A stretch of 64,000 nt of DNA. Source: the human T2T-CHM13v2.0 reference genome, Homo sapiens. The stretch is taken from the NCBI RefSeq assembly GCF_009914755.1, contig NC_060938.1; one strand, 5' to 3'. The notes below the pieces were generated by a model. The model searched no databases. It had not been told where the DNA came from and saw only the letters and a program-made list of their open reading frames with translations. Position numbers and translations under genes: made by a program. This document shows positions 38,353 to 40,514 of the stretch, one piece after another (position 1 is the stretch's first letter; each line of letters opens with the position of its first letter).

Positions 38353-38872
38353 ACGAGGAAATGTAAGTTAAAATAAGACGCTAATTTTTAATATCTATTG
38401 TCATTATAAACAATAAATTTAATAATATCCAGTGGTAAAAGGAGTTAGAGAAATGAGTGTAAATTGGCATGGACTTTTCAAATGGATTTTAGATAAATTT
38501 ATCTGTTGACTCTAAATTCCATGTCCAGTGCTTTTTCCTGGTGTTAGATTCTCACACACAAACAAAGAAGTGTTGAGAGATGTTCACTGTATCATACTTA
38601 AAACAACTTATACTGCTACAAAAAGAAGGTAAATTAAATTGCAAATCATTTTTGTATGATGTGCAGCCATTAAAAGGGATGAAGTTAATAGAGCTGTATG
38701 AACTATTATGGAAAACTTTCCTATGTAAAGAAAAACACATTACATAAATAAGATTCCGCTTAAGTAATAATAATGTATGCATAGAAAGTTCCTTAAGGAA
38801 TATTTAAGAAATGGTGAACACTGATTTTGAAATTTTTCTTTCTTCCTTCATTTCTTTTCTTTTTTTAGGAAA

Positions 38873-38890
38873 ATGTCTGATGAATTTTCG
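38873..38890 (+). CDS. MAPK1IP1L: MAPK1IP1L coding exon 1 (MSDEFS), within the 22-nt micro-exon 38869-38890
   Basis: Long polypyrimidine tract plus AG at 38867-38868, then GAAAATGTCTGATGAATTTTCG, then donor GTAAGT. Phase 0, in frame with the next exon. Confidence 0.92.
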
Positions 38891-38994
38891 GTAAGTTGAT
38901 CAGTTTATCTGTGATAAGTTTTTCATCTCTTAAGAAAAACAACATGGTCCTAACTGGGCTACGTAAATCTTTTCACTTAAAAGAGATGCTTTAA

Positions 38995-39139
38995 CCAGGC
39001 ATGGTGGTGTGCACCTGTAGTCCTAGCTACTTGGGAGGATCCCTTGACCCCAAGAGTTTCAGGCTGCAGTGAGCCATGATTGTGCCATTGCACTCCTGCC
39101 TGGGTGACAGAGTGAGACTCTGTCTATAAATAAATAAAA
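38995..39139 (+). mobile_element. Partial Alu (right monomer)
   Basis: TSD aaaagagatgcttt. Confidence 0.8.
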
Positions 39140-39806
39140 GAGATGCTTTTTGTGATTCTTGGCTTTGGGGGTAGTAAAGAGATTTTGATAGGTGATTTGC
39201 CTTAGTTTACTGAGATAATAGCATGTTTGGAAATGTTTCCTGTATTTATGAAAATATGTATTTCTTTAAATGAAAATTTAAGATGTTACTTCTGTTGTTC
39301 TCTTTTACCCTGATAGTATTAATAGCCAACATTTATTAGAAATTATTATATACCAGGCACTCTGTGAAAGTGTACTACATGAAATATCATATTTAAGCCT
39401 CAAGTTAACCCTAAAACAGTTTTGAAACTGAAGAGGCTCTATCTCAGAGTATGTAGCTCCTTTGAGGTTAAGCCAGGATTCAAATCCATATCTTGACTGT
39501 TAGTTCTATCTTCTTAATTACTGTATTTTGTTGTATTAATACAGCAGAGAAATGAAGCACAATATGATTAGTTGTATTTAGAAAACGAGTTTCTCTGAAG
39601 AATTTGCACTGTAAAGTTGATACGCAAAGTAGCATCTCAAGGTTTATGTTAAATAGAGTATTTTTTAAATGACTAGCTTAGCTTTTGAAGATATTCTTGA
39701 GGTTTATAATCCCTGCCCCTATAGGTTACTATTCTCTGTGGGTTTATAATGGTGTTCGATGTAACTTTTCCCTAGATAGGAAAGACGTATCTGTTTTGTG
39801 TTCCAG

Positions 39807-40514
39807 TTGGCAGATGCACTACCTGAACACTCCCCTGCCAAAACCTCTGCTGTGAGCAATACAAAACCTGGCCAACCTCCTCAAGGCTGGCCAGGCTCCA
39901 ACCCTTGGAATAATCCGAGTGCTCCATCTTCAGTGCCATCTGGACTCCCACCAAGTGCAACACCCTCCACTGTGCCTTTTGGACCAGCACCAACAGGAAT
40001 GTATCCCTCCGTGCCTCCCACCGGACCACCTCCAGGACCCCCAGCACCCTTTCCTCCTTCCGGACCATCATGTCCCCCACCTGGTGGTCCTTATCCAGCC
40101 CCAACTGTGCCGGGCCCTGGCCCCACAGGGCCATATCCTACACCAAATATGCCCTTTCCAGAGCTACCCAGACCATATGGTGCACCCACAGATCCAGCTG
40201 CAGCTGGTCCTTTAGGTCCATGGGGATCCATGTCTTCTGGACCTTGGGCGCCAGGAATGGGAGGGCAGTATCCTACCCCTAATATGCCATATCCATCTCC
40301 AGGCCCATATCCCGCTCCTCCTCCTCCCCAAGCCCCTGGGGCAGCACCACCTGTTCCATGGGGCACCGTTCCACCAGGAGCCTGGGGACCACCAGCACCA
40401 TATCCTGCCCCTACAGGATCGTATCCCACACCAGGACTCTATCCTACTCCCAGTAATCCTTTCCAAGTGCCTTCAGGACCTTCTGGTGCTCCACCAATGC
40501 CTGGTGGCCCCCAT
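39807..40514 (+). CDS. MAPK1IP1L: MAPK1IP1L (MISSL) main coding exon, 236 codons, Pro/Gly/Tyr-rich
   Basis: Acceptor ttccAG 39805-39806; [10 protein letters not shown]...PMPGGPH; donor CAT|GTGAGT at 40514/40515; part of ORF 39798..40538. Confidence 0.95.

What the first reader, a model, noticed from the sequence alone, without database searches (positions are those of the whole stretch)
38869..40514. MAPK1IP1L looks like the donor or paralogue of the galectin-3 N-terminal tail: same N-terminus and exon architecture in the neighbouring gene
Seen: the spliced protein begins MSDEFS|LADAL, has PQGWPG..W.N.P (39879-39896) and then G-x-Y-P repeats. The ATG lies in a 22-nt micro-exon (GAAA ATG TCT GAT GAA TTT TCG, phase 0) after a non-coding CpG exon and before one large Pro/Gly/Tyr exon. 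Recalled, not in window: human galectin-3 begins MADNFS|LHDAL...PQGWPGAWGNQP followed by PGAYP repeats. LGALS3 has a non-coding exon 1, an exon 2 encoding only six residues (GAAA ATG GCA GAC AAT TTT TCG) and an exon 3 encoding the repeat tail, and it is the next same-strand gene downstream. 8/11 identical N-terminal residues, PQGWPG and an identical micro-exon boundary are hard to explain by low complexity alone. Inference: the only chimera-type galectin arose by tandem duplication of MAPK1IP1L exons 1-3 fused to a galectin CRD. MISSL would then be a CRD-less sibling of the galectin-3 tail that may share Ser6 phosphorylation, self-association/phase separation and trafficking signals. I cannot verify whether this has been published.
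Basis: partly seen in the sequence, partly recalled or inferred. Interest (0 to 1): 0.9.

Follow-up and report, generated by a model that had tools for sequence, protein, structure and literature searches.

The report
Galectin-3 tail has neighbouring sibling gene
The start of the little-studied gene MAPK1IP1L and the start of its neighbour galectin-3 appear to be copies of one ancestral gene piece, which would explain where galectin-3's unusual tail came from and suggests the two proteins share a job in cell trafficking.

Summary
MAPK1IP1L and LGALS3 lie 59 kb apart on the same strand. Each has a non-coding CpG-island exon 1. Each then has a 22-nt exon made of GAAA, ATG and five codons (17 of 22 nt identical, donor GTAAGT), followed by one large phase-0 Pro/Gly/Tyr exon that opens L-x-D-A-L and holds PQGWPG.

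This is more than low complexity:
- A genome-wide pattern for M-x-D-x-F-S plus a donor site has 5 hits, two of them these genes.
- They are the only 2 of 590 chr14 genes with a 22-nt start-codon exon.
- An HMM of 30 bird galectin-3 N-termini scores human MISSL (E about 2e-5) above human galectin-3 (E 0.2).
- Profile-profile P = 3.6e-12.

The detectable homology covers only the first 33-46 residues. The repeat regions alone are not significant, though both share a G-x-Y-P core.

Paralogy of the 5' module is well supported. Which gene was the donor is unresolved, because I could reach no fish, shark or lamprey sequences.

Papers report separately that both proteins bind ALG-2. None of my gene-name or motif searches found a paper linking the two genes.

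The parts
28836..28992 (+). MAPK1IP1L non-coding exon 1 in a CpG island
   Evidence: RefSeq exon. GC 0.69 and CpG observed/expected 0.92. LGALS3 exon 1 (chr14:49334442-49334490) is also non-coding, with GC 0.76 and o/e 0.91.
38344..38362 (+). Alternative upstream exon of the predicted isoform XM_054377023.1. It supplies 2 coding nt, so all 22 nt of exon 2 are read in frame.
   Evidence: LGALS3 isoform NM_001357678.2 does the same: 38 coding nt, then all 22 nt. The intron phase before exon 2 is therefore the same in both.
38869..38890 (+). 22-nt start-codon micro-exon: GAAA, ATG and five codons (MSDEFS), phase 0, donor GTAAGT
   Evidence: It is 17 of 22 nt identical to LGALS3 exon 2 (chr14:49342560-49342581), which has the same layout. 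It is one of 5 genome-wide pattern hits and one of 2 such exons among 590 chr14 genes.
39807..40514 (+). Exon 3: 236 codons, phase 0 at both ends, 35% Pro and 14% Gly, 10 Tyr
   Evidence: Pfam PF15822 (MISS) E 2.8e-119. The counterpart is LGALS3 exon 3 (chr14:49343235-49343558), 108 codons, also phase 0 at both ends.
39807..39944 (+). The part of exon 3 that aligns with galectin-3 (MISSL residues 7-46 plus a few more). It opens LADALP and has 12-14 extra residues relative to galectin-3 before the PQGWPG block.
   Evidence: hhalign aligns MISSL 1-46 with galectin-3 1-33: probability 97.6, P 3.6e-12. Alignment shown.
39879..39896 (+). PQGWPG block
   Evidence: Identical hexapeptide in LGALS3 exon 3, 16 of 18 nt identical. 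Held as PPQGWP in bird galectin-3 and in sauropsid MISSL.
39906..39926 (+). W-N-N-P followed by a P-S-A-P motif
   Evidence: W-x-N-x-P follows the block in both families. Its proline pairs with galectin-3 P30 in the alignment. P30 is one of six prolines reported as needed for ALG-2 binding. The P[ST]AP match is at exon-3 residue 37.
41805..41816 (+). Last coding piece: three codons and the stop. A roughly 5.5-kb 3' UTR follows.
   Evidence: In LGALS3 three lectin-domain exons follow exon 3 instead.

Best explanation
MAPK1IP1L and LGALS3 carry paralogous 5' gene modules made by a local duplication on this chromosome segment before mammals and sauropsids split. The module has four parts:
- a CpG-island promoter with a non-coding exon 1;
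- an intron of 8-10 kb;
- a 22-nt exon holding the start codon and five codons;
- one large phase-0 exon for a disordered Pro/Gly/Tyr tail. This exon opens with a conserved non-repetitive block: L-x-D-A-L, then PPQGWP, then W-x-N-x-P.

In LGALS3 the module is spliced through a phase-0 intron to three lectin-domain exons. That gives the only chimera-type galectin. In MAPK1IP1L the module is almost the whole protein. Which arrangement came first is not settled.

Inferred function: the shared module is a docking and condensation tail. The conserved N-terminal block is its regulated part, and its proline/aromatic motifs recruit the calcium sensor ALG-2 (PDCD6) to steer trafficking.

Shown here: the anatomy, the conservation and the statistics. 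Taken from papers: ALG-2 binding by each protein. Inferred: common descent, its timing, and that both proteins bind ALG-2 through the homologous block.
For: Anatomy: identical micro-exon layout, 17 of 22 nt identical, the same donor, phase-0 exon 3 in both, and both exon 1s in CpG islands.

Rarity:
- 5 genome-wide hits to the M-x-D-x-F-S plus donor pattern (reversed control 8). Two are these genes, 76 kb apart on one strand. The other three are not annotated starts.
- Only these 2 of 590 chr14 genes have such an exon.

Sequence:
- Galectin-3 N-terminal HMM (31 sequences, 40 aa) against the first 55 aa of human MISSL: 38.6 bits. None of 20,000 composition-matched shuffles reached it (best 28.7).
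- First 16 aa only: 26.1 bits, none of 20,000 (best 22.8).
- Reverse direction: 22-33 bits, none of 20,000.
- Bird-only HMMs with bias correction on: human MISSL E 6.5e-5 (12 aa) and 1.8e-5 (16 aa) at Z = 20,000, better than human galectin-3 at E 0.2.
- hhalign probability 97.6, P 3.6e-12.

Boundary in birds: of 120 bird lectin-domain proteins, 71 partial models begin exactly at L-x-D-A-[LV] and 30 carry the full N-terminus.

Tail motif: G-x-Y-P surrounds 7 of 10 Tyr in MISSL and 8 of 10 in galectin-3. No shuffle of 20,000 reached either count.

Synteny:
- Pig gene list: WDHD1, SOCS4, MAPK1IP1L, LGALS3, DLGAP5 (PMC4736284, passages).
- Macaque: MAPK1IP1L and LGALS3 in the same orientation, flanking a retrogene (PMC10415907, passages).
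- Swallow: model P0005 joins MISSL exon 3 to galectin-3 exons.

Function:
- MISSL binds ALG-2 together with MAP1B, and its knock-down lowers secretion (Takahara 2017, as cited in PMC8953439 and PMC7865452; passages).
- The isolated galectin-3 tail binds ALG-2 with KD 4.6 uM. Residues 1-68 and P17, P30, P46, P50, P51 and P55 are needed (PMC13542199, section 10 read).
Against: - The repeat-rich bulk of exon 3 is not detectably homologous. BLASTP exon 3 against exon 3 gives a best E of 0.17. HMMER with bias correction on the 48-aa model against full-length MISSL gives 10.2 bits, i-E 0.67. With the bird 40-aa model the bias-corrected E for human MISSL is only 0.0081, and 0.027 to 320 for the five other MISSL sequences tested.
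- Pfam MISS hits none of 8 galectin-3 tails at E <= 10.
- The database search with MISSL exon 3 found 15 proteins, all MISS family. No galectin-3 appeared except the merged model. The N-terminal region search found 8, all MISS.
- Six-frame searches of the human genome with each exon-3 start did not find the other gene. The same search with a bird galectin-3 start also missed human LGALS3, so these blanks carry little weight.
- The alignment needs a 12-14 residue gap.
- No sequence outside amniotes was seen, and no DNA from any other species.
- No lectin-domain relic lies in the window or in the 7 kb upstream of LGALS3. None would be expected after this much time.
- The ALG-2 binding site on MISSL is unknown to me, because the primary paper was not held.
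Confidence: 0.82

Rival explanations
1. Same paralogy, direction. A MISSL-like gene is the older one. A tandem copy of its exons 1-3 landed upstream of a single-domain galectin gene and was spliced onto it, creating galectin-3.
For: Phase-0 boundaries make the splice-on simple. MISSL consists of little beyond the module. MISSL N-termini sit close to the consensus that bird galectin-3 also keeps, so MISSL is not a degraded copy.
Against: Nothing here polarises the event. Only amniote sequences of either family could be retrieved. No outgroup was available.
Confidence: 0.45
2. Same paralogy, opposite direction. Galectin-3 is the older gene. MAPK1IP1L is a tandem copy that lost the lectin-domain exons, picked up a three-codon terminal exon and lengthened its tail.
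For: The last coding exon of MAPK1IP1L has only three codons before a long UTR, which looks like a captured terminator. MISSL exon 3 is twice as long and carries insertions relative to galectin-3.
Against: No lectin-domain relic downstream in the window, though this is weak evidence. No phylogenetic evidence either way.
Confidence: 0.35
3. Convergence. Two unrelated Pro-rich proteins independently acquired the same N-terminal signal because both need the same kinase site or the same ALG-2 docking motif.
For: Both bind ALG-2 according to papers. Short linear motifs do arise repeatedly.
Against: Convergence on a peptide does not explain the identical 22-nt exon with the same 4-nt leader, the same rare TCG codon at the same donor, the same intron phases, or the adjacency on one strand.
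Confidence: 0.05
4. Chance resemblance of low-complexity sequence.
For: Composition-corrected comparison of the tails alone is not significant.
Against: The first 12-16 residues are not low complexity and score E about 1e-5 at proteome scale with bias correction on. No shuffle of 20,000 reached the real scores. hhalign P 3.6e-12. Rare architecture and adjacency.
Confidence: 0.02
5. Partial transfer. Only the micro-exon and the first part of exon 3 were copied or gene-converted between two neighbouring genes whose tails evolved independently.
For: Detectable homology stops after 33-46 residues.
Against: The block and the repeats lie in one exon. Both tails share the G-x-Y-P core far beyond composition. 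Exon 2 is 77% identical rather than 100%, and the block is fixed in both birds and mammals, so any transfer was ancient. Repeat regions change fast: listed bird galectin-3 proteins range from 234 to 352 aa, which explains the lost signal.
Confidence: 0.08

Closest known systems
Galectin-3 N-terminal tail (short N-terminal segment plus collagen-like Pro/Gly/Tyr repeats)
   Same: Same gene architecture for exons 1-3, the same N-terminal block, PQGWPG, W-x-N-x-P and G-x-Y-P units. Papers report that this tail binds ALG-2 and drives condensation.
   Different: MISSL has no lectin domain. Its tail is 236 codons against 108, richer in Pro and poorer in Gly/Ala, has 12-14 extra residues before PQGWPG, and its repeats are irregular.
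MISS family, Pfam PF15822 (MAPK1IP1L; rodent MISS/Mapk1ip1)
   Same: MAPK1IP1L exon 3 is a full-length member, E 2.8e-119.
   Different: The Pfam model does not detect any of the 8 galectin-3 tails tested. The three rodent MISS-type gene models retrieved (P0129, P0130, P0132) do not show the N-terminal block. The MISS discovery paper reports no homologues beyond a human one and never mentions galectin (PMC2173866, passages).
Other Pro-rich ALG-2 partners with ALG-2-binding motifs (ALIX, Sec31A, SARAF, annexin A11, TFG)
   Same: Disordered Pro/aromatic-rich regions that bind ALG-2 in a calcium-dependent way (PMC7504102, PMC7865452, passages).
   Different: I did not compare their sequences. From recall they lack the M-x-D-x-F-S / L-x-D-A-L start. 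PPQGW resembles the type-2 motif quoted for SARAF (PPPPGF) but is not identical. That is a resemblance, not a test.
Chimeric genes born by tandem duplication and exon shuffling through symmetric-phase introns
   Same: A module bounded by a phase-0 intron, joined to the exons of a pre-existing domain.
   Different: Here the event is ancient (at least amniote age), the module is a disordered tail rather than a folded domain, and the donor is undetermined.

Membership tests
MISS family (Pfam PF15822) | Match to the family HMM above the gathering score: MAPK1IP1L exon 3 | tested here: met
   397.7 bits, E 2.8e-119, profile positions 3-238 of 238.
MISS family (Pfam PF15822) | Match to the family HMM: galectin-3 tail | tested here: not met
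   No hit at E <= 10 for human LGALS3 exon 3 or for 7 bird galectin-3 proteins. That is 0 of 8. HMMER's filters drop most weak hits.
Galectins (Pfam PF00337 lectin domain) | A galactoside-binding domain in MAPK1IP1L or next to it | tested here: not met
   Only MISS was found in exon 3. tblastn of human and bird lectin domains against the window and the 7 kb upstream of LGALS3 gave only E >= 3 noise.
Proposed shared MISSL/galectin-3 5' module | 22-nt internal start-codon exon with 18 coding nt, phase 0 | tested here: met
   Present in both human genes. They are the only 2 of 590 chr14 genes. In birds, 71 of 120 gene models begin at the exon-3 start. Sauropsid MISSL has 8 residues before the boundary instead of 6.
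Proposed shared MISSL/galectin-3 5' module | N-terminal block: M-[SA]-D-x-F-S, L-x-D-A-L, PPQGWP, W-x-N-x-P | tested here: met
   Alignment of 6 MISSL and 9 galectin-3 sequences. HMM and shuffle tests. hhalign P 3.6e-12.
Proposed shared MISSL/galectin-3 5' module | Homology along the whole Pro/Gly/Tyr exon | tested here: inconclusive
   BLASTP E 0.17. hhalign aligns only the first 28-32 columns. The shared G-x-Y-P core is enriched in both.
Proposed shared MISSL/galectin-3 5' module | Adjacency on one strand in other vertebrates | tested here: inconclusive
   Human: 59 kb apart. Pig and macaque: from paper tables. Swallow: only a merged gene model. No fish, amphibian, shark or lamprey data were reachable.
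ALG-2 (PDCD6) binding proteins | Calcium-dependent direct binding to ALG-2 through a Pro-rich motif | not testable with these tools
   Reported for MISSL (cited) and for galectin-3 residues 1-68. No binding site on MISSL is known to me. I did not score any ALG-2-binding motif.

The most novel reading that the evidence does not exclude
Galectin-3 is in origin a MISSL-family trafficking protein that captured a lectin domain. The shared N-terminal block plus G-x-Y-P tail would be an autonomous, ancient module that docks ALG-2 and forms condensates. MISSL would then co-condense with galectin-3, be recruited by calcium and ALG-2 to damaged endolysosomes or ER exit sites, and share the Ser6 kinase switch. 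Galectin-3's unconventional secretion would descend from an older MISSL function.
Probability: 0.3. Interest if true: 0.8.

Novelty: new member of a known kind. Interest (0 to 1): 0.66.

Why it matters
[quoted passage not shown] Reviews describe its tail simply as an N-terminal 'unrelated region' (PMC11986560, passage).

A lectin-free paralogue next door would do three things:
- It gives the tail an origin that comparative genomics can test.
- It provides a natural 'tail-only' control protein for work on phase separation, secretion and ALG-2 recruitment.
- It gives the barely characterised MISSL a concrete functional hypothesis.

It also singles out the conserved block as the part to mutate. 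That block includes the proline equivalent to galectin-3 P30, one of the residues reported as needed for ALG-2 binding.

Tried and rejected
- Exon 3 against exon 3 by BLASTP: not significant, E 0.17.
- Pfam MISS model on galectin-3 tails: 0 of 8 hit.
- Database word search with the MISSL exon-3 start (13 candidates, 8 hits, all MISS) and with whole exon 3 (669 candidates, 15 hits, all MISS, all amniotes). No independent galectin-3 hit. Another 8 and 3,981 candidates of untold source were left out by the tool.
- The search from the lectin domain of P0005 listed only the best 120 of 272 hits, all birds.
- Six-frame searches of the human genome with the MISSL exon-3 start and the LGALS3 exon-3 start did not find the partner gene. 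The control with a bird galectin-3 start also missed human LGALS3, so these blanks are uninformative.
- HMMER on full-length MISSL with bias correction gave meaningless negative scores. I replaced this with N-terminal segments and shuffled decoys.
- Protein Atlas on the galectin-3 tail: best score 0.75, no lead.
- Search for a lectin-domain relic: none.
- Alternative-frame ORFs in exon 3: nothing notable.
- A 'PYGAP' match near the end of the galectin-3 tail is absent from bird galectin-3. I dropped it as coincidence.
- Literature, all 10 searches used. Gene-name and motif combinations returned 3, 4,288 (25 listed), 10, 2 and 4 papers. From titles and abstracts, and the passages I opened, none treats the two genes as related. 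One search found 0 papers. One search found reviews only. One search was badly framed and wasted.
- Takahara 2017 was not held. Supplements, for example Supplementary Fig. 8 of PMC13542199, were not seen and may bear on the proline mapping.
- Script faults: searches (regex error; time-out), repeated.
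Full report
**What is there.**
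The window holds MAPK1IP1L (protein MISSL) on the + strand.
- Exon 1 (28836-28992) is non-coding and lies in a CpG island: GC 0.69, CpG observed/expected 0.92.
- After a 9,876-bp intron comes a 22-nt exon (38869-38890): GAAA, ATG and five codons. AG precedes it and GTAAGT follows it.
- After a 916-bp intron comes exon 3 (39807-40514), 236 codons, phase 0 at both ends. It is 35% Pro and 14% Gly with 10 Tyr.
- A last exon adds three codons and a long UTR.

LGALS3 starts 59 kb downstream on the same strand. I fetched it from the same assembly.
- Non-coding exon 1 of 49 nt, GC 0.76.
- An 8,069-bp intron.
- A 22-nt exon 2 with the same layout: GAAA, ATG, five codons, donor GTAAGT.
- A 653-bp intron.
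- A 108-codon phase-0 Pro/Gly/Tyr exon 3, then three lectin-domain exons.

The two micro-exons are 17 of 22 nt identical. Both end with the same TTT TCG codons. The one caveat is that RefSeq predicts a + strand protein-coding model (LOC124903319) and a - strand lncRNA between the genes.

**Is it more than chance?**
Architecture:
- Among 590 chr14 genes with curated transcripts, these are the only two whose start codon sits in a 22-nt exon with 18 coding nt. Only four genes have any internal start-codon exon of 30 nt or less.
- A degenerate pattern for M-x-D-x-F-S followed by GTRAGT occurs 5 times in the whole genome; the reversed control occurs 8 times. Two hits are these genes. The other three lie antisense to, or outside, annotated coding genes.

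Sequence:
- I retrieved 120 bird galectin-3 proteins and several amniote MISSL proteins. Thirty of the bird proteins carry a complete N-terminus.
- Bird galectin-3 begins MSDGFSLSDALP (P0083 and others). That is closer to human MISSL than human galectin-3 is. Over the first 11 residues, human MISSL is 8-10 identical (median 9) to the 30 birds. Human galectin-3 is 7-8 identical (median 8).
- An HMM built only from bird galectin-3 N-termini, with HMMER's bias correction on and Z = 20,000, gives human MISSL 22.8 bits (E 6.5e-5) for 12 residues and 24.6 bits (E 1.8e-5) for 16 residues. Human galectin-3 scores 11.7 and 11.6 bits (E 0.2).
- Against 20,000 composition-matched shuffles, no decoy reached the real score, in either direction and for both the 16-residue and the 40-55-residue segments.
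- Profile-profile comparison gives probability 97.6 and P 3.6e-12 over 32 columns.

**Where the signal stops.**
- hhalign aligns only MISSL 1-46 with galectin-3 1-33, even when it is given the whole tails.
- Exon 3 against exon 3 by BLASTP gives E 0.17.
- Pfam MISS hits none of 8 galectin-3 tails.
- Two database searches from MISSL exon 3 returned only MISS-family proteins.
- With bias correction, the 40-48-residue HMMs lose most of their score.
- Genome-wide six-frame searches with either exon-3 start did not find the partner. The same search with a bird galectin-3 start also failed to find its true human orthologue, so that tool cannot see relationships of this kind.
- Beyond the block, the tails still share a specific core. 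G-x-Y-P surrounds 7 of 10 Tyr in MISSL and 8 of 10 in galectin-3, and none of 20,000 shuffles reached either count. Repeats inside galectin-3 inflate its count.

**Conservation of structure and neighbourhood.**
- Of the 120 bird lectin-domain proteins, 71 are partial models that begin exactly at L-x-D-A-[LV]. Several others splice foreign first exons onto that same residue. So the boundary before residue 7 holds in birds.
- Sauropsid MISSL has eight residues before the boundary instead of six.
- A pig study lists WDHD1, SOCS4, MAPK1IP1L, LGALS3 and DLGAP5 together in one interval (PMC4736284, passages).
- A primate study shows MAPK1IP1L and LGALS3 in the same orientation around a retrogene in macaque (PMC10415907, passages).
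- A swallow gene model, P0005, runs from MISSL exon 3 into galectin-3 exons. This is an annotation error, but it implies adjacency on one strand.
- I could reach nothing outside amniotes.

**Best explanation.**
The two genes carry paralogous 5' modules from a local duplication older than the mammal-sauropsid split. One copy is joined through a phase-0 intron to lectin-domain exons. Convergence or chance cannot account for the same 22-nt exon, leader, codons, phases and adjacency. The direction remains open: a MISSL-like donor, or galectin-3 with later loss of the lectin domain. No lectin relic was found near MAPK1IP1L, and none would be expected at this age.

**How it probably works.**
- Reviews cite Takahara 2017 for calcium-dependent binding of MISSL to ALG-2 together with MAP1B, and for reduced secretion after MISSL knock-down (PMC8953439 and PMC7865452, passages). 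The primary paper was not held.
- A 2026 paper reports that the isolated galectin-3 tail binds ALG-2 (KD 4.6 uM). Residues 1-68 are required, and P17, P30, P46, P50, P51 and P55 matter. Condensates recruit ALG-2 for unconventional secretion (PMC13542199, abstract and section 10 read). That paper does not mention MISSL.
- P17 and P30 lie inside the block shared with MISSL. In the alignment, P30 pairs with the proline after W-N-N.
- A review notes that the first 12 residues of galectin-3 are the most conserved part of the tail and carry phosphorylatable serines (PMC12293996, passage). Ser6 and the acidic residue three positions before it are kept in MISSL.
- I therefore infer that the shared module is an ALG-2-docking, condensation-prone tail with a regulated N-terminal cap. 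This is inference, not a test.

**Novelty.**
- Ten full-text searches were run. They included every pairing I could think of between MAPK1IP1L, MISSL, C14orf32 or 'spindle-stabilizing' and galectin or LGALS3, plus the shared hexapeptide.
- They found only omics lists, neighbour lists and papers that print the galectin-3 sequence.
- The MISS discovery paper states that no homologues beyond a human one were found.
- The library lacks most subscription journals, so an earlier mention elsewhere cannot be excluded.
- I rate this a new case of a known kind of event: a chimeric gene formed by duplication and exon shuffling. It has real value for the galectin field.

Noticed in passing
L005 (chr6:102062007-102065150); L006 (chr12:106893755-106896859); L007 (chr17:54227668-54230808): There are three processed copies of MAPK1IP1L. 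The annotated chr6 pseudogene LOC728098 is 87% identical over all 245 residues, with the micro-exon and exon 3 contiguous. Two older, degraded copies on chr12 and chr17 have no gene annotated at those places.
   Followed up: partly
Proteins P0005, P0009, P0011, P0017, P0039, P0049, P0072: Several public bird galectin-3 gene models translate exon 3 in a wrong frame, giving LEHLEP-like repeats. P0005 also fuses MISSL exon 3 to galectin-3. In addition, 71 of 120 bird models lack the micro-exon and start at exon 3.
   Followed up: partly
window 39915-39926: MISSL has a P-S-A-P motif just after the shared block. The LGALS3 allele in this assembly has no P[ST]AP in exon 3. From recall only: a P(S/T)AP motif in galectin-3 has been tied to Tsg101 and exosomal release, and a common Thr/Pro variant affects it.
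   Followed up: no
window 38344-38362; LGALS3 chr14:49338542-49338582: Both genes have an alternative upstream coding exon that enters the 22-nt exon in the same phase, so that GAAA is read as part of the protein (XM_054377023.1 and NM_001357678.2).
   Followed up: no
L002 (chr14:49328040-49330657): LOC124903319 is a predicted 115-residue protein-coding model between the two genes on the + strand. It is not Pro-rich and shows no evident resemblance to either neighbour.
   Followed up: partly
Proteins P0003, P0007, P0008: Alligator, gecko and skink MISSL have eight residues before the exon-3 boundary instead of six. That suggests a 28-nt micro-exon in sauropsids. The inference comes from protein only.
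   Followed up: no
Proteins P0129, P0130, P0132: The rodent MISS-type gene models retrieved begin inside the Pro-rich region and lack the N-terminal block. I did not check whether this is real or a modelling artefact.
   Followed up: no
LGALS3 chr14:49342173-49343558: The non-coding transcript NR_003225.2 starts upstream of exon 2 and runs unspliced through intron 2 into exon 3. From recall, this is the 'galig' internal gene. No comparable long alternative-frame ORF stood out in MAPK1IP1L exon 3.
   Followed up: partly
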